64,000 bases of DNA. Origin: a bacterium UBP13_UBA5359 (GTDB lineage Bacteria > UBP13 > UBA5359). This document shows, piece after piece, positions 25,941-34,664 of the stretch. Under the pieces are notes generated by a model, which had not been told where the DNA came from, did not search any database, and worked only from the letters and a program-made list of their open reading frames with translations. The position numbers and the translations under genes were made by a program. Position 1 is the first letter of the stretch, and each line of letters starts with the position of its first letter. The stretch is from assembly GCA_002410925.1 (NCBI GenBank), contig DHPR01000012.1, positions 84,643 through 148,642 of the forward strand, given 5' to 3'.

Positions 25941-26819
25941 CTAAGAGTCCATGACCGGTGCTATGAGCTTGAAAGCCACTTCACCCAACCCGATTCCCAG
26001 CGAGGCAGCCACCAGAGGACATTTAGCCCGCAGCAGACAGTATATACGTCTGGGAGTAGATGATGACAGGCTCTCATAATGTCCGTGTCCTTTGCCGATA
26101 ACAATGTCGACGCTATCGAAGATATCATGAAACTCACGGCTGACATCCGCCAGAGGCGTGCCTATGCCGTTGCTGCCGCTGGTAATCACCCGACAAAGCT
26201 TGTCCAGGCCGACGTAAGAAGCATCTTCCAGTGTAGAATCGTTAATGATAGGCCCATCTTTAACAGCATAGGTTAAATCCAAGCCGTAAGGCTCTAGTTC
26301 CTCTACCAGTATCTTATCAAAGACTATTTCGCCGGTGTTATCGCCCAAAATAAGAAGGCTGCGAGCCATTTTTAGATCCGCCAGCAGGGTATCGTAGTCG
26401 TCCACGGCAAAATCACCTCCGGCCACCTCTGCCACAACCTCGGCCAGATCAAACTTCATACCTATGCCCAGGTCTATGATGTTACCGGCTACCGCCAGCT
26501 TCAAGGCGGTATGCAAACGGTCGGAGCAATTTTCCAGCAAATCACAGGCCTCTGGATAAAGCTCCAGGGCCAGATCGTTATACTTTCTCTTCATAGAAAC
26601 ATAAGGATCAGGATTACCGGAAAGATCTTCTATCATGCGGTAAAGAGGTGTGCATAAAGTCGTCGGCGTCAGGGAGAGATCCATATCACGAGAATAATCA
26701 TGGGCAGCTGCCATAATCCTAGCTAAAGTATCCCGATCATCGGTGGCCAGTCTGGCGGTATTGAGCGCCTGCGTCAAAACACAGGGCATACATTCAAATC
26801 CGGCTTTCATTGTAACCAC
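25941..26819 (-). CDS. ARMT1/DUF89 family damage-control phosphatase
   Basis: CMPC, AGNIID, DNTGEIVFD, PIIND, KG.G.YESL and KC motifs. Confidence 0.88.
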   Translation of the reverse strand: MVTMKAGFECMPCVLTQALNTARLATDDRDTLARIMAAAHDYSRDMDLSLTPTTLCTPLYRMIEDLSGNPDPYVSMKRKYNDLALELYPEACDLLENCSDRLHTALKLAVAGNIIDLGIGMKFDLAEVVAEVAGGDFAVDDYDTLLADLKMARSLLILGDNTGEIVFDKILVEELEPYGLDLTYAVKDGPIINDSTLEDASYVGLDKLCRVITSGSNGIGTPLADVSREFHDIFDSVDIVIGKGHGHYESLSSSTPRRIYCLLRAKCPLVAASLGIGLGEVAFKLIAPVMDS

Positions 26820-26995: not shown

Positions 26996-27649
26996 CTAAA
27001 CTGACCCCATGTTCTTTTGCAGCAGCCAGCGGGCCGCTGTATCTACGCCTTCTCCAGTGGTGCAGGAAACATTGATGATGGGAGCTTCCTCATTGACTGC
27101 CCTGACGGCGGCGGTAAAGGCCTGCAGCTTAAAATCTATAAGGGGTAAGAGATCGATTTTGTTAAGAATAATCATATCGGCCTGGGCAAAAATTGCCGGG
27201 TATTTGATCGGTTTATCGTCACCCTCCGGAACGCTGGCCACTACCATATCGGCCGTTTCTCCCAGCCTGAAGTTGGTAGGGCAGATCAAATTGCCTATAT
27301 TCTCTATGAAAAGATATCCCGGCCCCGATAATTCGAGATCATCCATAGCCCGGTCTATCATGAAGGCGTCCAGATGGCAAGCTCCTCCGGTATTGATCTG
27401 AGTAACAGGCACACCGACGGCGGCAATACGATCAGCATCTATAGAGGAAGCAACATCTCCTTCGATAACGCCTCGTGAGAATTCCAAAGGAATATTTTCC
27501 AGCAAGCGCATGATCAGGCTGGTCTTGCCGGCGCCAGGAGAGGCCATAACATTGACAACCATCAGCTGAGATGCCTTAAATCTAACTTTATTCCGCTCAG
27601 CCTGCTCATCGTTGGCACTGAGGATGGGTTTGCGCACATTAATTTTCAA
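26996..27649 (-). CDS. hypB: hydrogenase nickel incorporation GTPase HypB
   Basis: SPGAGKT, IEGD, NTGGACHLDA, ENIGNLICP, EGDDKP.KYP and NKID. Confidence 0.96.
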   Translation of the reverse strand: MKINVRKPILSANDEQAERNKVRFKASQLMVVNVMASPGAGKTSLIMRLLENIPLEFSRGVIEGDVASSIDADRIAAVGVPVTQINTGGACHLDAFMIDRAMDDLELSGPGYLFIENIGNLICPTNFRLGETADMVVASVPEGDDKPIKYPAIFAQADMIILNKIDLLPLIDFKLQAFTAAVRAVNEEAPIINVSCTTGEGVDTAARWLLQKNMGSV

Positions 27650-27993
27650 GATTCCACCTCTACACTGTCCAGATAAAGCGCTTTCCCGCCTTCAAGATGA
27701 TTGAGACCGCCGCAGGCGGAACACTCCAGCGCCAGGCGCCCGCCCCCGGCATAATTCGTCTGCTTACCGCACTCTTTACATATCAGGCGGGCAGGCTCCA
27801 TCACCAATCGCAAAGAGGCTCCTTCTGCTGCCGTACATCTGCATAGTTCATTGAAATAAGCCGCCAGGCATTCCTCTTCCACACCGGCAAGCACACCGGC
27901 TACCACAGTGATGGTAGTAATCCTGCTTTCTTTATCGGGCAGAGCCTCCAGAGCAGTATCCAAAACAGCCTGAGCTATGGCCGCCTCATGCAA
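27646..27993 (-). CDS. hypA: hydrogenase maturation nickel metallochaperone HypA
   Basis: N-terminal MHE and two CxxC zinc-finger motifs. Confidence 0.93.
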   Translation of the reverse strand: MHEAAIAQAVLDTALEALPDKESRITTITVVAGVLAGVEEECLAAYFNELCRCTAAEGASLRLVMEPARLICKECGKQTNYAGGGRLALECSACGGLNHLEGGKALYLDSVEVES

Positions 27994-28299
27994 TCATATC
28001 CCCCCCGGCAGACCGTGATTGGGGTTCATGGAGATGCTCTTCCTGGGACAGATATCCGCACAATAACCACAGACAATGCATTTGTAGGGTTCCAATGTCC
28101 ATGACCTGGGCTCCTTGGACACGGTCAGGGCATTGGCCGGACACTTACGAGCACAAATGCCGCAGAAGGTACAGGTTGACGGGTCCATTTCCACATGTCC
28201 TCTGGATCCTGCAAAGGAATTACGGCGCTCTACCGGATAACACCTTGTCACAGGCTTGCGCAGCACATTATTGATAATGCTTTTCAGCAGACTAACCAT
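27994..28299 (-). CDS. echF: Ech hydrogenase subunit F (2x[4Fe-4S])
   Basis: CTFCGICARKCP and CIVCGYCADICP; operon position. Confidence 0.88.
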   Translation of the reverse strand: MVSLLKSIINNVLRKPVTRCYPVERRNSFAGSRGHVEMDPSTCTFCGICARKCPANALTVSKEPRSWTLEPYKCIVCGYCADICPRKSISMNPNHGLPGGI

Positions 28300-28314: not shown

Positions 28315-29397
28315 TCATCTCTCCGTGCAGCTTATACACGGATCGATCGAAAGAACTATAACCGGCACGTTGGCCAGTTCACAACCCGGCAGCATGGCCA
28401 GCAATGGAGCCATGTTGGCAAAGGTTGGGGTTCGCACCCGCAGGCGCTCCAGGTTCTTGGTGCCGTCGCCTTTGATATAGTAGATGACTTCACCCCTGGG
28501 CTGCTCCACCCTGGATATGACTTCGCCCTCGGGATTACCTCTGGCAGACACGGCTATATCGCCGACAGGTATATCCCTGACAGCCTGACGAACAATATCT
28601 ATGGATTGATACATCTCCCTTATCCTGACCCGAGCACGAGCATAAGCATCGCCGCCGGTTTCCGTAATGGGAGTTACCTTGATCTCTTTGTAGGCGGCAT
28701 AACCCGTCTCGCGGAAATCCCTGGCAATGCCGCAGGCTCGGGCCACAGGCCCGACACTTCCCAGATCGTAAGCCTGCTCTGAAGTTATACGGCCAGTACC
28801 TACCAGGCGCTGTTTAACACTATAATCATCAAAGACCACCGGTCGAACGATCTCCAAATCACGCTCCAGAGCATCTACCGTCTTCAGCACTTCAGCCATA
28901 AGCTCTTCGGAGATATCGCGCCTGACGCCTCCCACGATACAAGTGGAAATAATTATACGCCCGCCTGTAGTAGCTTCCATAATATCCAGTACGGCTTCAC
29001 GGCTGCGCCAGGCTTGCATGAAGAGACTCTCAAAACCGAAAGAATCCGCTAGCAGCCCCAGCCAAAGCAAGTGGCTGTGCAGCCGATGCAATTCACTCCA
29101 GATAACTCTTAGATAACGAGCGCGATCGGGCACGGTTACATTCATCAGCATTTCTATGCCCTGGCAGTATGCCAGAGCATGCATGAAGCTACAGATACCG
29201 CAAATTCGCTCTACCAGGAAGATATTCTGCGTATATTCCTTCTTCTCGGCCAGCTTCTCTATGCCTCTGTGGACATAACCTATGGCCGGAAGAGCCTCCA
29301 CAACTTTTTCATCCTCCAGCATCAGCCGAAGCTGCAATGGCTCTGGAAAAACGGGATGCTGTGGTCCAAAAGGTATTATCGACTTGCTTCCAGGCAT
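28315..29397 (-). CDS. echE: Ech [NiFe]-hydrogenase large subunit
   Basis: ERICGICS (L1) and DPCISCTER at the C-terminus (L2, no cleavable extension). Confidence 0.95.
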   Translation of the reverse strand: MPGSKSIIPFGPQHPVFPEPLQLRLMLEDEKVVEALPAIGYVHRGIEKLAEKKEYTQNIFLVERICGICSFMHALAYCQGIEMLMNVTVPDRARYLRVIWSELHRLHSHLLWLGLLADSFGFESLFMQAWRSREAVLDIMEATTGGRIIISTCIVGGVRRDISEELMAEVLKTVDALERDLEIVRPVVFDDYSVKQRLVGTGRITSEQAYDLGSVGPVARACGIARDFRETGYAAYKEIKVTPITETGGDAYARARVRIREMYQSIDIVRQAVRDIPVGDIAVSARGNPEGEVISRVEQPRGEVIYYIKGDGTKNLERLRVRTPTFANMAPLLAMLPGCELANVPVIVLSIDPCISCTER

Positions 29398-29802
29398 CTA
29401 TTTATCCTCCTCTTCCGGAGCTCCCTGCAATCGAATATCTATAGACCTGGAACACCCTTCTCTGCCCATGGGAGCTACGGGAGCATCCTCGGTCAGAAGA
29501 AATCTGCCGCCGTAATCTATGACCAGATCCCTGATGGGAATGGAAAAAAGATCCTTGATCTCATTCTCCACCAACAATGCGGCAAAGAAGATGGAAGATA
29601 TACTGGGCAGTTCTTCGCCTTTTTTTAAATACAGACGCAGATTATAAAGCTCATAATCCTTATCGAAATGGTACAGAATATCGTAACCATCCCCTATATC
29701 GGTGCAGGTCATAGTCACAAAACGATATCTCTTTCTATGTTTATCGGCAACCTCCTGCAAGAGGCTGCCCAGGCTCACTGCTGCCGTATTCATCAAACTC
29801 AT
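29398..29802 (-). CDS. echD: Ech hydrogenase subunit D (NuoC-like)
   Basis: ILYHF...LPSIS.IF.AA.L.ENEI.DLF. Confidence 0.88.
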   Translation of the reverse strand: MSLMNTAAVSLGSLLQEVADKHRKRYRFVTMTCTDIGDGYDILYHFDKDYELYNLRLYLKKGEELPSISSIFFAALLVENEIKDLFSIPIRDLVIDYGGRFLLTEDAPVAPMGREGCSRSIDIRLQGAPEEEDK

Positions 29803-29829: not shown

Positions 29830-30309
29830 TCAAACCTTTTCCGGCTCACCTGCAGGCTGAATCGTCAGCCGCACTTCAGCGCCGGCATTGCGATCTTCCT
29901 GGCGCACATTCAGAAGACCGGCCGCCTGCAGTATGCCATCCATGATAGCCTCCGGGCGAGGCGGGCATCCGGGCACAAACACATCTACCGGAATGACCTG
30001 ATTCACTCCGCCCAACACATTATAGCAATCGGCCATAATACCGCCGGTAGCGCCGCAAGCTCCCAGAGCCACCACTGCTTTGGGAGAGGGCATCTGCGCA
30101 TAAACGTTCTTCAAAACTCTGACATTGCGGTAATTCACCGCTCCGCTTACCACCAGAATATCAGCATGTTTAGGGTTTCCCACATGCACAATTCCAAACC
30201 GCTCAACATCATATATAGGTGTCAGGCAAGCTAAAAATTCTATATCACACCCATTGCAGCTGTTGCAATTAAAATGGACTATCCAGGGTGATTTCTCCCG
30301 ACAATTCAT
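29830..30309 (-). CDS. echC: Ech hydrogenase small subunit
   Basis: KSPW, SCNGCDIE, GAC and PGCPPRPE. Confidence 0.94.
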   Translation of the reverse strand: MNCREKSPWIVHFNCNSCNGCDIEFLACLTPIYDVERFGIVHVGNPKHADILVVSGAVNYRNVRVLKNVYAQMPSPKAVVALGACGATGGIMADCYNVLGGVNQVIPVDVFVPGCPPRPEAIMDGILQAAGLLNVRQEDRNAGAEVRLTIQPAGEPEKV

Positions 30310-30330: not shown

Positions 30331-31185
30331 TTAAATATACAACCATAACACATTGGTAACCGCCAGGCCTAAGCCCACCATCCACATAAACCTGAGCATC
30401 CATGGCCAGGTCAGCCTGGCCATAATGTTATCCAACAGTATTTCGCAGAAAAAACAGACCGCCGCTATCAGCAGCCCAACCGGGATACTGGTAGCCCAGA
30501 ACATCGTTACAATAAAGAAGAGCAAAAATATTTCATACCAGTGCGTAATTTCCAGAATAGCCAGAAAGGGGCCTGAATATTCCAGGGTAATCCCTTTGAT
30601 TATCTCCTGATGCCCGTGATGTGAAGTGGAAAAATCAAAGGGTGATTTCTGCAATTTTATAGTCATTACCATCAAAAAGGCCGGAAAAATAAGTGGTAAA
30701 GATAGAAGAAGCGGCTTACCGGAAGCCAGGATATCTCGCGCCATGAAACTATCGTTAACCAGATATACGCCTACAAGCATCAGAATTAAAATCGGTTCAT
30801 AGGAAAGCATCTGCATGATCTCTCTTTGGCTTCCTATTCTGCTGTAAGGTGAGCGCACGCTCATTCCTCCCAGGATTAAGGATATAGTGGAGAAAGCCAG
30901 GATAAAGAGCACCATCAGCATATCCTGACCAAGAGCCAGCAGAACGACGCAAAGAACCATAAATGCCAGATGAAGGCCGGCATAAATTATTTGCACTCTG
31001 TTGACAACAATGGGCTCCTTATGCAGCAGTTTGATAACATCATAGACAGGCTGTAGCAATGGAGGACCGATCCTGCTCTGCATTCTGGCCGTGAGCTTGC
31101 GATCGAGTCCCACTAAAAACGCACCAATAAATGGTACTGCGAATATGGCCAGAAGAGCTGTAATTATCGGATCAACCATGATCAC
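30331..31185 (-). CDS. echB: Ech hydrogenase membrane subunit B (NuoH-like)
   Basis: DRKLTARMQSRIGPPLLQP.YD and SPFD.S.SHHGHQE. Confidence 0.93.
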   Translation of the reverse strand: MIMVDPIITALLAIFAVPFIGAFLVGLDRKLTARMQSRIGPPLLQPVYDVIKLLHKEPIVVNRVQIIYAGLHLAFMVLCVVLLALGQDMLMVLFILAFSTISLILGGMSVRSPYSRIGSQREIMQMLSYEPILILMLVGVYLVNDSFMARDILASGKPLLLSLPLIFPAFLMVMTIKLQKSPFDFSTSHHGHQEIIKGITLEYSGPFLAILEITHWYEIFLLFFIVTMFWATSIPVGLLIAAVCFFCEILLDNIMARLTWPWMLRFMWMVGLGLAVTNVLWLYI

Positions 31186-33086
31186 TTGCTTATCACCCCA
31201 AACATTATAAATATTAGCGCTATAGCTATTGAATTGGCCCAGACCGTAAGATGAGCTTCACCAAAAAGCGGGTTCAGATAGTAGCTCCTAATACGGGCGG
31301 ATTCTCCTTTATCCATCAGAGTTCTGAACTCAAAGGTGGTTTTTGCGCCCTCTAAATTCTCGCCACAGAGAAAGGGCTGCCGAATATGGCTTTTTTTGAT
31401 GCCTCTAACCACCAAAAAAAGCACCGGCACCACCAGTGCCAGCATGAAGAAAAGAGGCCACTCGATAAAGGTACTGGCAGAGTTCATCAGATCCCAAGAA
31501 CGAGAAGTTACCTCTGTTTCGGAGAACATCGTCATGGACATGGGACTTATTACTCGCTTGAACAGTGGAACAACAACTGCAGCAGCAGCAATAATTCCCA
31601 GCAGCAAAACACCTTTAGCGGCAAACATAGAGAAGGGAACATCCTCAATCTTATAAACAGGATGATAGGCCACCGTCTGTATTCTTCCTATCCACTTGGA
31701 CCAGAACACTACTGTCAAAGCGCTGCCCATAATCAGCAAAAAGAGGACCAGCGGCGACATAATGACTGCCTCCAGAGCCATCCACTTGCCGATAAGCATA
31801 CCAAAAGGAGGCATCATCATGGAAACCATACCGATTATGGCGATAACGGTTGTTATCGGCATCTTCCGCATCAGCCCCTCCATATCCTCGATATCACGGC
31901 TACCTATACCCTGCTCTATCGTTCCCACACACAGAAAGAGCAGCGCCTTGGAAATTGCATGGAAGCAGGTGAGTAGGATAGCTGCCGCATAAGCCAGAGG
32001 CGTATGGATAGCGGCACAAATGATTATAAGCCCAAGGTTGGCTATAGTTGAATAAGCCAGAACCTTCTTCCCGTTGCTCTGGCTTATCGCCATGGCGGAA
32101 GCAAGAGCAAAAGTGAAAGCACCGGCTATGGCCACTACCTGTCCCATTCTGGTGCCGCCCAGCCCCGGAGCCAGGCGAATGATGAGGTAGACACCGGCTT
32201 TGACCATGGTGGTGGAGTGAAGCAGAGCGGATACAGGCGTCGGCGCTACCATAGCCCCCAGCAGCCAGCTCTGGAAAGGCAATTGTGCCGATTTGGTAAA
32301 AGCGGCCAGACAGATCATTGCCAGCGGCAGCAGAGCGCCAACAGCTACAAGCTCATCCAAACCTGCCGAGCCGCTGGCAGATATGCTGAGAAATAAAGCC
32401 AGCATCAACGCTGCGCCGCCCAAAGAGTTTATCCATAATGCTCTGTAGGCACTCTCTTCGGCATCCCCTGTCCTATCATGGCCGATAAGCATAAAGGAGC
32501 AAAGTGTAGTCAATTCCCAGAAAATAGTCAATAATTTCAGATTATTGGACATGACCAGACCGTTCATCACACCCAGAAAACCTATTAAAAAGAAAAAGAA
32601 AAGTCCGGTACTTCTCATCTGCACCGGGCCATGCGCTTCATACCGTTTCATATAGCCGATAGCATATATAACAATCAGAGGCCCGATGATGGAAATTATA
32701 AGAACCATAATTATAGCAAGGAGATCCACATTTAGCGCGGGCACATATGCCTGCACTGAATGCGGCAGCATTTCCGAAGCAAGGCTTATAGCCAGCTGAA
32801 GAAGCCCCAGGCCGATAATCAGCATTTTTTTAATTGCAAAGCCTATATAAATAATGATGGCGAGAATCAGCAATTCAATCAGAGGCAGAACCTTCATCAA
32901 GCCGTTATCGACGGAGAGCGTGAAAGGGCCTTGCAAAGCTAAAAGAATACTGCCTGCCATTATTGTCAAAGCAGATAAAACGATCACGGGTGTCTTGCAT
33001 CGCCAGCCGGGAGCCAGCATGACTAGCAAGCCAAAAATTAACGGACCAAAAATTAACAATAGAGGCAAAAAAGCGTACAAATGCAT
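31182..33086 (-). CDS. echA: Ech hydrogenase antiporter-like subunit A (NuoL-like)
   Basis: KSAQLPF..WL..AM.APTPVSALLHS.TMVKAG. Confidence 0.93.
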   Translation of the reverse strand: MHLYAFLPLLLIFGPLIFGLLVMLAPGWRCKTPVIVLSALTIMAGSILLALQGPFTLSVDNGLMKVLPLIELLILAIIIYIGFAIKKMLIIGLGLLQLAISLASEMLPHSVQAYVPALNVDLLAIIMVLIISIIGPLIVIYAIGYMKRYEAHGPVQMRSTGLFFFFLIGFLGVMNGLVMSNNLKLLTIFWELTTLCSFMLIGHDRTGDAEESAYRALWINSLGGAALMLALFLSISASGSAGLDELVAVGALLPLAMICLAAFTKSAQLPFQSWLLGAMVAPTPVSALLHSTTMVKAGVYLIIRLAPGLGGTRMGQVVAIAGAFTFALASAMAISQSNGKKVLAYSTIANLGLIIICAAIHTPLAYAAAILLTCFHAISKALLFLCVGTIEQGIGSRDIEDMEGLMRKMPITTVIAIIGMVSMMMPPFGMLIGKWMALEAVIMSPLVLFLLIMGSALTVVFWSKWIGRIQTVAYHPVYKIEDVPFSMFAAKGVLLLGIIAAAAVVVPLFKRVISPMSMTMFSETEVTSRSWDLMNSASTFIEWPLFFMLALVVPVLFLVVRGIKKSHIRQPFLCGENLEGAKTTFEFRTLMDKGESARIRSYYLNPLFGEAHLTVWANSIAIALIFIMFGVISK

Positions 33087-33166: not shown

Positions 33167-33195
33167 ATTTTACCCTGCCGATGCAGCCGTGTCAA
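33167..33195 (-). promoter_or_regulatory. sigma70/sigmaA promoter TTGACA-N17-TAAAAT upstream of echA
   Basis: Near-consensus boxes with 17-bp spacing. Confidence 0.65.
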
Positions 33196-34512
33196 TTAAG
33201 ACGCTGTATGGCTTACCCCTATATCGGTGGGCGCCCGACCAAGATCTGAAAGAATTTCCAGAAGATCTGAAATCTGATTTTCAAGACTTTCATTCAAATG
33301 CGCTCGATCAGGATAGAGCGTATATTCCCGACGCAAAGCATCGGGTGTCAAGCTTATCATAACGGAATTGGCTCCGGCACTCAGGCCCTGCCGGCGGGCA
33401 TCCTTCTCCAGAGTTTCAAAGCTGGTAGTGACGACAATTTTAGCATTTCGGGCATCGACAATACGGGCAACAGCTAATGCCTTAAGCACCTCCGCAGCGG
33501 CCGGACTATGCGAATTTGCCAAGGGCGTCCCCGGATGTGGAATAAAGGGGCCGAAGGAATACATTTCAGCTTGCAAACTCTTGGTAAGAGAGATGTCTCC
33601 AAGTATGTCCTCTCTCGTCTGACCGGGAAGACCTATAAGCCCTCCGGTTATAAGCAGATAGCCCATATCGAAAGCAGCACGCAGATGCTCCAGACGGCTG
33701 TCCAGTCTGCGCCCGGGATGCAATTGCTCATAAAGACGCGAATTGCTCGTTTCAAAACGCATCAATAATCCTCTGGCACCGGCTTCATACAATCTCTGCA
33801 ATCCGGGTAGGCCTACCTCCCCGCAACTGACAAAGATCAACGCCGGCTCTCTCTCTCTGATGCCGCTGACTATTTGACAGAGATTATCGATTGAATATGC
33901 CGAATCTTCGCCGCTTTGCAGAACCAATGCCTTGAAACCGTACTTGTCTATGGCTTCGCAGGCGGCTTTTACCACTTCCTCCGGGGTCATCCTGTAAGGC
34001 TTCAGCCCCTTGTTACGGGCTGATATGCCGCAATAGCCACAGCTCTGCCTACAATAATTGGAAAACTCTATTATGCCGTGGATACAGCAGGAGTTACCCA
34101 GATGCTTATGGCGCAGATAATTGGCCGCCTGCATCAGCCGGGCTATATCCTCTTTGCCTTCCAGATTGAGAAGATAGAGCAGCTCCTCTTCCGCCACCTC
34201 TTCTTCATCAGCAACTATCCGCTCCAATATCAACGACAACCGATCGCCGGCTCTCTTATCCATACGTTTGAAACCGGACAGATGCTGGTCTCTCTCCTGG
34301 AGCTCAAAGAAGAGCTCCTTCCAGAGTGCCAGCACCTCTTGTGCCTCAGCATCAGGAACAGCATCTATAACGTATCCTCCCTGCGCATAGATATAATCGC
34401 CCACTTTCAGGTTGCTGATCTCATTAACAGCCCGCCGCTGCTCACCAAAATAATCTATAATGCTGATGCACCCATCAATACTCACTACCCTACCGGGAAT
34501 GGAATAACACAT
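33196..34512 (-). CDS. HypC-domain / HydE(PylB)-like radical SAM fusion protein
   Basis: N-terminus MCYSIPGRVV...LKVGDYIYAQGGYVI (HypC-like), then CRQSCGYC, LQSGE, RFETSN..LY..LHP, GLPGQT, GPFIPHPGTPL, GAN.VM and YTLYP (HydE family). Confidence 0.85.
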   Translation of the reverse strand: MCYSIPGRVVSIDGCISIIDYFGEQRRAVNEISNLKVGDYIYAQGGYVIDAVPDAEAQEVLALWKELFFELQERDQHLSGFKRMDKRAGDRLSLILERIVADEEEVAEEELLYLLNLEGKEDIARLMQAANYLRHKHLGNSCCIHGIIEFSNYCRQSCGYCGISARNKGLKPYRMTPEEVVKAACEAIDKYGFKALVLQSGEDSAYSIDNLCQIVSGIREREPALIFVSCGEVGLPGLQRLYEAGARGLLMRFETSNSRLYEQLHPGRRLDSRLEHLRAAFDMGYLLITGGLIGLPGQTREDILGDISLTKSLQAEMYSFGPFIPHPGTPLANSHSPAAAEVLKALAVARIVDARNAKIVVTTSFETLEKDARRQGLSAGANSVMISLTPDALRREYTLYPDRAHLNESLENQISDLLEILSDLGRAPTDIGVSHTAS

Positions 34513-34635
34513 TTCATGCTCCGATATAACTTATAGATATGCTAACAAAGACTTCGCTTACGATCAGCTATCCTCCGATACCTACCAATATCTTTATAGC
34601 ATTCTCACGAAAAAACTATCGATAAAACCTCATAT

Positions 34636-34664
34636 ATGCTAACTCTGCTGAACAAATGTGTCAA
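34636..34664 (-). promoter_or_regulatory. sigma70/sigmaA promoter TTGACA-N17-TAGCAT
   Basis: Upstream of the HypC-radical SAM gene. Confidence 0.5.

What the first reader, a model, noticed from the sequence alone, without database searches (positions are those of the whole stretch)
33196..34512. HypC fused to a HydE-like radical SAM enzyme, directly upstream of Ech hydrogenase
Seen: one ORF whose first ~70 aa look like HypC (N-terminal Met-Cys, IPG, VGDY) joined by a helical linker to a full HydE/PylB-family radical SAM barrel (CxxxCxxC, ETSN..LY..LHP, GPFIPHP.TPL, YxxY). Established: HypC carries the Fe(CN)2CO unit for [NiFe]-hydrogenases, while HydE acts on an Fe(CO)2(CN)-cysteine synthon in [FeFe]-hydrogenase maturation; the two pathways are regarded as independent. 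Inference: the fusion may bridge them, with the radical SAM domain making or trimming an Fe-carbonyl/cyanide synthon and handing it to HypC for EchE. I do not know of a characterised example, but cannot check databases.
Basis: partly seen in the sequence, partly recalled or inferred. Interest (0 to 1): 0.88.

Follow-up and report, generated by a model that had tools for sequence, protein, structure and literature searches.

The report
HypC–HydE-like maturase replacing HypDEF
One gene joins the iron-carrier protein of nickel-iron hydrogenases to a remodelled copy of a radical enzyme known only from iron-iron hydrogenase assembly, and genomes that carry it lack the usual ligand-making genes, which points to an undescribed way of building the nickel-iron active site.

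Summary
A 438-aa ORF on the minus strand (34512..33196) joins a HypC domain (PF01455, 44.4 bits) to a HydE-like radical SAM barrel (TIGR03956, 234.9 bits, just under its 254.6 cut-off). It is the first gene before echABCDEF-hypA-hypB.

The fusion is real and conserved: 118 of the 120 best database relatives carry both domains. All 51 fusion rows form one clade beside true HydE, and independent assemblies bridge the junction.

- **This genome (98.4% complete):** the fusion is the only HypC and Ech the only [NiFe] large subunit. HypD, HypE and HypF are not found; HydG, HydE, HydF and HydA are.
- **301 Omnitrophota genomes:** 133 have a [NiFe] large subunit; 41 carry the fusion, 88 carry HypD, none both, 4 neither.
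- **Fusion genomes without HydA:** all 21 also lack HydF and a separate HydE, yet all keep HydG, often adjacent and once fused.

Best reading (about 0.65): HydG plus this fusion build and deliver the Fe-CO/CN unit of [NiFe] hydrogenases in place of HypD/E/F. The evidence is comparative only. I found no paper on it. This scan noted the same family eight times before on other DNA.

The parts
33196..34512 (-). Fusion gene, 438 aa: HypC domain + helical linker + HydE-paralog radical SAM barrel
   Evidence: ORF. Pfam and NCBIfam hits. AF2 model mean pLDDT 91.5, pTM 0.91.
34321..34512 (-). HypC domain (residues 1-64): invariant Cys2, and Gln44 in place of the conserved HypC histidine
   Evidence: PF01455 44.4 bits. 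C2 and Q44 are invariant in 67 of 67 aligned fusions. Q44 aligns with the conserved His of all four solved HypC chains.
33268..34212 (-). HydE-like radical SAM domain (residues 101-415)
   Evidence: TIGR03956 234.9 bits against a cut-off of 254.6. T. maritima HydE E 2.9e-59. Foldseek hit 3iiz: target TM 0.92, rmsd 1.7 A.
34078..34089 (-). Family-specific Cys142-Cys143-x-His145 motif; His145 replaces the HydE arginine that equals T. maritima R54
   Evidence: At least 97% conserved in 158 fusions, while 35 of 35 HydE have Arg at position 145. Mapped onto TmHydE by hand from the alignment.
34030..34053 (-). Radical SAM cluster motif C154-x3-C158-x2-C161
   Evidence: Invariant in both fusions and HydE.
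31182..33086 (-). echA-like antiporter-type membrane subunit (634 aa)
   Evidence: PF00361 179.9 bits.
30331..31185 (-). echB-like membrane subunit
   Evidence: PF00146 161.1 bits.
29830..30309 (-). echC-like [NiFe] small subunit
   Evidence: PF01058 113.9 bits.
29398..29802 (-). echD-like subunit
   Evidence: PF00329 33 bits.
28315..29397 (-). echE-like [NiFe] large subunit. It has both ligand-cysteine motifs (RICGIC at residues 64-69, DPCISC at 352-357) and no C-terminal extension. It is the only [NiFe] large subunit in the genome.
   Evidence: PF00346 203.9 and PF00374 48.4 bits. Motifs. Single PF00374 match in G000.
27994..28299 (-). echF-like 2x[4Fe-4S] subunit
   Evidence: PF00037 and related ferredoxin families.
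27646..27993 (-). hypA (nickel insertion)
   Evidence: PF01155 79.6 bits.
26996..27649 (-). hypB-like GTPase (nickel insertion)
   Evidence: PF02492 70.7 bits.
34636..34664 (-). Promoter-like site upstream of the fusion gene (10 of 12 consensus positions)
   Evidence: Consensus scan only: 18 sites found against 14.3 +/- 3.1 in shuffles. Not evidence of function.

Best explanation
The gene encodes a two-domain maturase for [NiFe] hydrogenase that, with HydG, replaces HypD, HypE and HypF. Proposed sequence of events:

1. HydG cleaves tyrosine and builds the [Fe(Cys)(CO)2(CN)] synthon. This is established chemistry for HydG (abstract of PMC11826987); its use here is inferred.
2. The HydE-like barrel of the fusion takes this synthon. 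As in HydE, the 5'-deoxyadenosyl radical attacks the cysteine sulfur to strip off the cysteine. This is inferred from the retained radical SAM motif and from the retained equivalents of TmHydE E58, M224 and M291.
3. HydE pairs two Fe units at its lower 'S3' product site for HydF. The fusion's remodelled lower site would instead hold one Fe unit: invariant Cys142-Cys143-x-His145 and Arg247-Gly248 replace the HydE arginines that equal R54 and R155. Inferred.
4. The Fe unit passes to Cys2 of the tethered HypC domain, which inserts it into the large subunit (EchE here). HypA and HypB then add nickel. Inferred from the known role of HypC.

How an Fe(CO)2(CN) unit would become the canonical Fe(CO)(CN)2 is unknown; HydG's second cyanide is a candidate source.
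For: **This genome (98.4% complete).** There is one HypC domain, the fusion, and one [NiFe] large subunit, EchE. HypD has no match. HypE and HypF have no match over cut-off: best 65 bits against 251.6, and 19 against 466. HydG (670 bits), HydE (355), HydF (566) and two HydA are present.

**Forty-four other fusion genomes (2 of the same genus, 42 Omnitrophota).**
- HypD 0 of 44; HypE 0 of 44 and HypF 0 of 44 over cut-off.
- Exactly one HypC domain in each, at the fusion's coordinates.
- HydG over cut-off in 42 of 44.

**Omnitrophota sample of 301 genomes.** Of 133 with a PF00374 match at my cut of best E <= 1e-10, 41 carry the fusion, 88 carry HypD, 0 both and 4 neither. Fisher p = 4e-30, not corrected for kinship.

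**HydG without an [FeFe] system.** The 21 fusion genomes without HydA all lack HydF and a separate HydE (one match each). All 21 have HydG at 448-550 bits. As a control, 91 of 100 non-fusion HydG genomes do have a separate HydE.

**Gene linkage.**
- HydG lies within 110 nt of the fusion in 13 genome loci and within 670 nt in 4 more.
- HydG is fused to it in one 917-aa open frame in G159.
- In 53 metagenome loci of 8 kb or more: large subunit 43, small subunit 40, HyaD-like protease 39, HydG 26, HypD 0, HypF 0.
- 77 of 81 neighbouring large subunits keep both ligand-cysteine motifs.

**Sequence and structure.**
- All 51 fusion rows form one clade (SH-aLRT 100, stem 1.27) set apart from 35 HydE.
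- The fold matches TmHydE: target TM 0.92, rmsd 1.7 A.
- The equivalents of M224 and M291 are kept, while R54 becomes His (100%), R155 becomes Gly (92%) and K309 becomes Arg (94%).
- The HypC histidine at the HypC-HypD interface (PMC9002611, passages) is an invariant Gln here, which fits a HypC that no longer meets HypD.
Against: - No chemistry was tested; everything is co-occurrence, gene order and residue conservation.
- HydG's known product carries two CO and one CN, whereas the canonical [NiFe] iron carries one CO and two CN. No gene or residue seen here accounts for the exchange.
- In this genome HydG is on another contig (C6) beside a TM1266-type [FeFe]-system regulator. A full HydEFG set and two HydA exist, so HydG's presence here needs no [NiFe] role.
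- Fusion-partner HydGs are not a distinct clade; they interleave with ordinary HydGs. Nothing in HydG itself marks a new function.
- Two fusion genomes lack a HydG over cut-off: G166 has none, and G112 has a fragment at a contig end.
- Only 26 of 53 long metagenome loci show HydG nearby.
- At Pfam's own PF00374 cut-off the census is 142 genomes with 12 'neither', not 4. The extra 8 have only 26-35-bit matches.
- Most genomes are MAGs, their kinship was not disclosed, and the Fisher test overstates independence.
- Whole-genome absence was tested in two phyla only.
- The class-specific residues were mapped to TmHydE numbering by hand from one pairwise alignment.
- I could not read model coordinates, so the nearness of Cys2 to the Cys-Cys-x-His site is not shown.
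Confidence: 0.65

Rival explanations
1. The fusion supplies only part of the ligand set, for example CO, whose anaerobic source in [NiFe] maturation is unsettled (recalled background). Or it only trims and carries iron. In either case cyanide comes from an unrecognised enzyme rather than from HydG.
For: HydG is not adjacent in this genome. It was not found near the fusion in 27 of 53 long metagenome loci. It was missing or fragmentary in 2 of 44 fusion genomes. The CO/CN stoichiometry of HydG's synthon does not fit the [NiFe] site.
Against: HypE and HypF, the known cyanide makers, are not found in 45 of 45 fusion genomes. HydG persists in 21 of 21 fusion genomes that have no HydA, HydF or HydE to serve. 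HydG is fused to the protein in G159. HydE itself makes no diatomic ligand; it processes HydG's product (abstract of PMC11826987).
Confidence: 0.12
2. The fusion is a HydE variant that still works in [FeFe]-hydrogenase maturation. Its HypC-like domain would be a generic carrier towards HydF or HydA, and its place beside [NiFe] genes would be incidental.
For: HydE is the best family match. This genome has HydA, HydF and HydG. In some genomes (G241, G193, G242) the fusion lies in one stretch with HydA, HydG, HydE and HydF.
Against: Twenty-one of 44 fusion genomes have no HydA, and 23 have no HydF. This genome and 15 Omnitrophota fusion genomes keep a separate true HydE as well. All 41 Omnitrophota fusion genomes have a [NiFe] large subunit and none has HypD. 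The usual gene order is small subunit, large subunit, protease, fusion. The HydE residues that contact the dimer product are replaced.
Confidence: 0.03
3. The missing HypD/E/F is an artefact: incomplete MAGs, or Hyp proteins too divergent for the models. The fusion would then be an ordinary HypC with an accessory domain of unrelated function.
For: Most genomes are MAGs of unstated completeness, and family models can miss divergent members.
Against: G000 is 98.4% complete and G001 99%. The same models found HypD at 420-528 bits in 87 of the 90 HypD-positive genomes of the same phylum sample; the other three hold only fragments. Zero of 41 against 90 of 260 cannot come from random loss. The HypC residue that contacts HypD is changed to an invariant Gln.
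Confidence: 0.04
4. The fusion and HydG deliver a non-canonical iron unit, for example Fe(CO)2(CN). The [NiFe] hydrogenases of these lineages would then carry a ligand set different from Fe(CO)(CN)2.
For: HydG's product has two CO and one CN (review PMC10114646, section 5, passages). Partner HydGs are ordinary HydGs. Nothing found here explains a CO-to-CN exchange.
Against: Seventy-seven of 81 neighbouring large subunits keep the standard ligand-cysteine motifs. Fusion-linked hydrogenases belong to several ordinary groups that also occur with HypD in the same phylum. I did not examine the residues that hydrogen-bond the CN ligands.
Confidence: 0.1

Closest known systems
HydE, the [FeFe]-hydrogenase H-cluster radical SAM maturase (Thermotoga maritima HydE; TIGR03956; PDB 3iiz, 7o1o)
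   Same: Best sequence and fold match: E 2.9e-59; target TM 0.92 and rmsd 1.7 A. It keeps the CX3CX2C motif and the equivalents of E58, M224, M291 and T269. It travels with HydG.
   Different: - Scores below the family cut-off (234.9 against 254.6).
- Forms its own clade.
- The equivalents of R54, R155 and K309 are His, Gly and Arg; it gains an invariant Cys-Cys-x-His.
- Carries an N-terminal HypC domain.
- Occurs without HydF or HydA in 21 of 44 genomes.
- Only 35% identical to the true HydE of the same genome.
HypC/HybG/HupF chaperones of [NiFe]-hydrogenase maturation (PF01455, TIGR00074; PDB 2z1c, 3vyr, 2ot2)
   Same: The full-length domain matches. The N-terminal Met-Cys and the I-P-G motif are invariant. 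It is the only HypC in the genome. It sits in a [NiFe] hydrogenase operon with hypA and hypB.
   Different: It is fused rather than a free protein of 70-90 aa. The conserved histidine (E. coli H51) is an invariant Gln. Its partner HypD is not found in any of 45 genomes.
HypCDEF pathway for Fe(CN)2CO assembly
   Same: The same presumed end: an iron with CO and CN ligands delivered to the large subunit before nickel insertion by HypA/HypB.
   Different: HypD (scaffold) and HypE/HypF (cyanide from carbamoyl phosphate; PMC6802093, introduction passage) are not found. A tyrosine-cleaving radical SAM enzyme is the likely ligand source instead.
HydG-HydE-HydF pathway for the [2Fe]H subcluster
   Same: A HydG plus HydE-type pair. 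Direct HydG-to-HydE synthon transfer has been reported (cited in PMC11826987, introduction passage), and the natural HydG fusion in G159 echoes it.
   Different: No HydF or HydA is needed. The presumed product is mononuclear and goes to a HypC domain, not to HydF.

Membership tests
HypC/HupF (PF01455, TIGR00074) | Family HMM match over the curated cut-off | tested here: inconclusive
   PF01455 scores 44.4 bits against a cut-off of 28.5, so it passes. TIGR00074 scores 42.5 against 48, so it fails.
HypC/HupF (PF01455, TIGR00074) | N-terminal Met-Cys (Cys2), the essential iron ligand | tested here: met
   MCYSIPG at the start. C2 is invariant in 67 of 67 aligned fusions.
HypC/HupF (PF01455, TIGR00074) | Conserved histidine near Cys2 (E. 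coli H51, T. kodakarensis H44), at the HypC-HypD interface | tested here: not met
   Gln44 aligns with this His in 4 of 4 solved HypC chains. It is invariant in the fusion family. Role of the His: PMC9002611, passages of the introduction and discussion.
HypC/HupF (PF01455, TIGR00074) | Works with a HypD scaffold encoded in the same genome | tested here: not met
   HypD was not found in G000 or in 44 other fusion genomes. It was found in 90 of 260 non-fusion genomes of the sample.
HydE (TIGR03956) | Equivalog model score over the cut-off | tested here: not met
   234.9 bits against 254.6. The genome's true HydE scores 355.1.
HydE (TIGR03956) | Radical SAM CX3CX2C motif and a (beta-alpha)8 barrel like TmHydE | tested here: met
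   C154, C158 and C161 are invariant. Foldseek target TM 0.92 and rmsd 1.7 A to 3iiz.
HydE (TIGR03956) | Iron-holding methionines M224 and M291 and the E58 partner residue | tested here: met
   M317, M385 and E149 are conserved in both fusions and HydE. Mapped by hand from the alignment.
HydE (TIGR03956) | Product-site residues R54 and R155, and K309 | tested here: not met
   His145 (100% of 158 fusions), Gly248 (92%) and Arg403 (94%). The 35 HydE have R (100%), R (100%) and K (97%).
HydE (TIGR03956) | Co-occurs with HydF and an [FeFe] hydrogenase | tested here: not met
   HydA is found in 23 of 44 fusion genomes and HydF in 21 of 44. It does co-occur in G000 itself.
Ech-type (group 4) [NiFe] hydrogenase, the neighbouring client | Six subunits including a large subunit with both pairs of ligand cysteines | tested here: met
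   Pfam families of six consecutive genes. RICGIC and DPCISC in EchE. The subgroup label (4e) is recalled and was not tested.

The most novel reading that the evidence does not exclude
Many uncultivated anaerobes make the CO and CN ligands of their [NiFe] hydrogenases from tyrosine. They would use HydG and a dedicated HypC-HydE-like maturase with no HypD, HypE or HypF. This would be a second, radical-SAM route to the [NiFe] cofactor. It would also give the CO ligand a defined anaerobic source and tie the [FeFe] and [NiFe] maturation systems together in evolution.
Probability: 0.55. Interest if true: 0.92.

Novelty: new variant of a known kind. Interest (0 to 1): 0.85.

Why it matters
HypCDEF is treated as the universal machinery for the Fe(CN)2CO unit of [NiFe] hydrogenases, and HydEFG as a separate machinery for [FeFe] hydrogenases. 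PMC6802093 says in its introduction that 'different machinery' serves each.

If a HydG/HypC-HydE route exists, that separation falls. It would offer a tractable two-protein system to study how an organometallic iron unit is made, trimmed and handed to a client. It might also simplify heterologous production of [NiFe] hydrogenases.

It changes annotation too. These genes are now named 'biotin synthase' or '[FeFe] hydrogenase maturase HydE', and [NiFe] hydrogenases in such genomes may be judged unmaturable.

In the Omnitrophota sample about a third of the [NiFe]-bearing genomes use it (41 of 133). Source names include Saganbacteria, Margulisbacteria, Riflebacteria, Ozemobacteraceae and Caldatribacterium.

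Tried and rejected
- **Literature.** Searches covered HypC, HydE, HydG, fusion, radical SAM, Omnitrophica, Margulisbacteria and the string 'HypC-HydE'. No paper on the fusion or on a HydG role in [NiFe] maturation turned up in the held library. Subscription journals and supplements are not covered. PMC9431212, PMC9431491 and PMC11216029 were read as passages only and do not mention it. PMC8300475 (the HydE-complex-B structure) is not held.
- **Genome-contig scan.** Whole-genome tests were therefore limited to G000's own phylum (3 genomes) and Omnitrophota.
- **'Split' forms.** Ten matches that began at residue ~122, some with a stop inside, looked like split genes. One search showed they are fusions of 392-393 aa with a shorter linker.
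- **Second HydG as [NiFe] partner.** G000's second HydG-family gene (C28, 441.9 bits) sits in a thiamine operon, so I do not count it.
- **A dedicated partner-HydG clade.** Rejected by the tree.
- **Triple fusions in metagenome loci.** labelled 20 loci 'FUS+HydG'. That was an over-call from domain homology. With an ORF-length test, one search finds none among the 80. The only HydG fusion seen is G159 (L077).
- **Domain docking.** Complex prediction of the HypC domain against the radical SAM domain gave weak support: score 0.47, best of 3 controls 0.00. The mark was reached by 58 of 80 solved complexes and 2 of 110 mismatched pairs. At 0.60 or under, only 7 of those 80 solved complexes and both passing mismatches reached it. 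The runs agree in at least 62% of contacts, and the partner's pLDDT is at least 78. My own alignment was used and no contacts were given, so it does not show where the domains touch.
- **Expression.** No RNA holder was listed.
- **Promoter and terminator scan.** One search is near shuffle expectation for promoters and is not used as evidence.
Full report
**What is there.** The finding's coordinates hold one ORF, but on the minus strand: 34512 down to 33196, 438 aa, ATG start.
- Residues 1-64 match Pfam HupF_HypC end to end (44.4 bits, cut-off 28.5). Residues 148-305 match Radical_SAM.
- NCBIfam ranks rSAM_HydE first: 234.9 bits over residues 101-415, just under the 254.6 cut-off. PylB (142.8) and BioB (103.8) follow.
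- An AlphaFold2 model built on 67 family members is confident throughout (mean pLDDT 91.5, pTM 0.91). It shows a beta-barrel HypC domain, a long helix (54-78), a less certain loop (about 79-90) and the barrel.
- The barrel superposes on T. maritima HydE with target TM 0.92 and rmsd 1.7 A over 337 columns.
- Downstream on the same strand lie echA, B, C, D, E and F, then hypA, hypB and an ARMT1-like gene.
- EchE has both pairs of [NiFe] ligand cysteines (RICGIC, DPCISC) and ends three residues after the second.

**The fusion is real and old.**
- 118 of the 120 best relatives in the protein database carry both Pfam domains. The other two are 421 and 426 aa, and one is marked partial.
- Names given by sources include Saganbacteria, Margulisbacteria, Omnitrophota, Riflebacteria, Ozemobacteraceae and Caldatribacterium. 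The proteins are mostly called 'biotin synthase' or 'HydE'.
- In 43 of 43 genome loci both domains lie in one ORF. Ten of these have a shorter linker (392-393 aa).
- In a quick maximum-likelihood tree of 88 rows, all 51 fusion rows form one clade (SH-aLRT 100, stem length 1.27) nested among 35 true HydE, with HydG as outgroup. That tree kept the HypC columns and used the quick search.
- Contigs of runs from other studies bridge the domain junction. X5 has no differences. X8 covers the whole stretch in one 9.5-kb piece, but it is near-identical and may be this DNA's source.
- The true HydE of the same genome is only 35% identical to the fused barrel.

**What the genome lacks and has.** G000 is 2.25 Mb in 40 contigs, 98.4% complete.
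- It holds one HypC domain, the fusion, and one [NiFe] large subunit, EchE.
- HypD is not found. HypE's best match is 65 bits against a cut-off of 251.6. HypF's best is 19 bits against 466. The same searches ring in the four control genomes that have [NiFe] hydrogenases.
- The genome has a HydG (670 bits, beside a TM1266-type regulator), a true HydE (355 bits), HydF (566 bits) and two HydA.
- A second HydG-family gene (442 bits) lies in a thiamine operon and is set aside.
- So an apparently functional Ech, with nickel-insertion genes, has no known way to obtain its Fe(CN)2CO unit except through the fusion.

**Does the pattern hold elsewhere?** G000's phylum has only three genomes in the held set. 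All three have the fusion, and the other two have no HypD. I therefore used Omnitrophota, where two loci gave an entry point. In an even sample of 301 genomes:

| Feature | Genomes |
|---|---|
| Fusion | 41 of 301 |
| HypD | 90 of 301 |
| Fusion and HypD together | 0 |
| PF00374 match, best E <= 1e-10 (my cut) | 133 of 301 |
| of these: fusion / HypD / both / neither | 41 / 88 / 0 / 4 |

- The Fisher test within the 133 gives p = 4e-30, not corrected for kinship.
- Three of the four 'neither' genomes have HydG.
- At Pfam's own cut-off the census is 142 genomes: 41, 89 and 12. The extra genomes have only 26-35-bit matches, which may be complex-I subunits.
- In 44 fusion genomes other than G000, HypE and HypF are over cut-off in none.
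- Each of the 44 has exactly one HypC domain, at the fusion.

**HydG is the partner.**
- HydG is over cut-off in 42 of 44 fusion genomes. G112 has a fragment at a contig end and G166 has none.
- HydA is found in only 23 and HydF in 21.
- The 21 genomes without HydA all lack HydF and have no second HydE-like match. All 21 still have HydG.
- As a control for MAG gaps, 91 of the 100 non-fusion genomes with HydG have a separate HydE.
- HydG lies within 110 nt of the fusion in 13 loci, and at 629-667 nt in 4 more.
- In G159 HydG is part of the same 917-aa open frame.
- Among 53 metagenome loci of 8 kb or more the commonest order is small subunit, large subunit, HyaD-like protease, fusion, HydG. Counts: large subunit 43, small subunit 40, protease 39, HydG 26, HypD 0, HypF 0, one HypE-like ORF on the opposite strand.
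- These counts rest on blastp against references from this genome and from one Omnitrophota hyp cluster (L225). The Hyp genes in L225 were identified by the HypD coordinates and by gene order and size. Short or divergent genes such as hypA are under-counted.
- The client hydrogenases are of several kinds, not only Ech. 77 of 81 neighbouring large subunits keep both cysteine motifs; two of the four exceptions are cut by contig ends.
- Partner HydGs are not a separate clade. For example, the HydG next to the fusion in G130 is nearly identical to the one next to HydE in G204. HydG is probably doing its ordinary chemistry, and the specialisation sits in the fusion.

**What changed in the two domains.** I compared 158 fusions with 35 HydE and mapped positions to T. 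maritima HydE by hand from the alignment.

| Position in the fusion | TmHydE equivalent | Fusions | HydE |
|---|---|---|---|
| C154, C158, C161 | radical SAM motif | kept | kept |
| E149 | E58 | kept | kept |
| M317 | M224 | kept | kept |
| M385 | M291 | kept | kept |
| T363 | T269 | kept | kept |
| H145 | R54 | His 100% | Arg 100% |
| G248 | R155 | Gly 92% | Arg 100% |
| R403 | K309 | Arg 94% | Lys 97% |
| C142, C143, R247 | none | near-invariant, new | not conserved |

- According to passages of PMC11826987 and of the review PMC10114646, M224 and M291 hold the Fe(CO)2(CN) units.
- The part of HydE that receives and attacks the synthon is therefore kept. The part that pairs two iron units and releases them to HydF is rebuilt, with new potential metal ligands.
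- In the HypC domain, Cys2 is invariant. The conserved histidine (E. coli H51) is an invariant glutamine.
- PMC9002611 (passages) places that histidine at the HypC-HypD interface and shows that it is needed for good HypD binding. Its loss fits a HypC that no longer meets HypD.

**Mechanism proposed.** Shown here: the two domains, their conservation, the gene company, the absence of HypD/E/F, and HydG without an [FeFe] system. Established elsewhere: HydG makes [Fe(Cys)(CO)2(CN)], HydE attacks its cysteine sulfur, and HypC carries the iron unit through Cys2. Inferred:
1. HydG hands its synthon to the fused barrel.
2. Radical chemistry removes the cysteine.
3. The rebuilt lower site keeps a single iron unit.
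4. The tethered HypC takes it to the large subunit, and HypA/HypB add nickel.

The change from two CO and one CN to one CO and two CN is unexplained. It is the weakest link.

**Limits.**
- No experiment was done.
- Whole-genome absence was tested in two phyla, most genomes are MAGs, and kinship is not controlled.
- Residue mapping was by hand.
- No coordinates were available to test domain contacts. The docking test gave only weak support (see Tried and rejected).
- In G000 itself a complete [FeFe] system exists and HydG is unlinked, so the case for HydG's role rests on the other genomes.
- Supplements of the papers could not be seen. The tables of maturase distribution in PMC11216029 might bear on how common HydG without HydA is.

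**Novelty.** Nine literature searches found nothing on this fusion or on HydG in [NiFe] maturation within the held library. This scan had already noted the same family on eight other genomes with the same reading. Those are unchecked AI notes and are not counted as support.
- the whole-genome census;
- the HydG-without-[FeFe] test with its control;
- the clade test;
- the residue-level comparison with HydE and HypC.

Noticed in passing
G000:C28:19975-21348 (outside the window; locus L012): A 457-aa protein scores 441.9 bits on the HydG equivalog model (cut-off 312) over its full length. It lies directly after a thiE-like gene and before two ORFs that look, by recalled motifs only, like thiG and thiC. 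It may be a HydG-type tyrosine lyase doing ThiH's job.
   Followed up: partly
window 25941-26819 (-): An ARMT1-like/DUF89 gene (217.5 bits) follows hypB. It is kept in the same place in L025 (same genus) and in metagenome locus L145. It was not seen in other fusion loci, and any role in maturation is unknown.
   Followed up: partly
G000 as a whole: The genome's phylum holds only three genomes, all of one genus, in the held set of about 200,000 species. The stretch recurs in landfill, fermentation, soil and sediment metagenomes by the run records.
   Followed up: no
window 33167-33195 (-): The best promoter-like match of the region (11 of 12 positions) lies right after the fusion's stop codon, before echA. 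The fusion and ech may therefore be transcribed separately as well as together. This is a consensus scan only.
   Followed up: no
window 34547-34609: Contigs of runs X3 and X4 skip 61 nt in the intergenic stretch upstream of the fusion gene. This is a strain variant in the putative promoter region (table 5).
   Followed up: no
L071:4194-6026 and L201:8167-9999: Two [NiFe] large-subunit ORFs next to fusions are 610 aa long and have no DxCxxC motif in their last 80 residues. They may be fused to a downstream gene such as the protease.
   Followed up: no
L167 (2.2-kb metagenome contig): A separate HypC-like ORF and a HydE-like ORF appear instead of one fusion ORF. This is either a truly split form or a frameshift in a low-coverage contig.
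   Followed up: no
L077 = G159:C1:683650-686388: One 917-aa open frame holds the HypC domain, the HydE-like barrel and a full HydG (455.7 bits). The genome has no HydA or HydF.
   Followed up: partly
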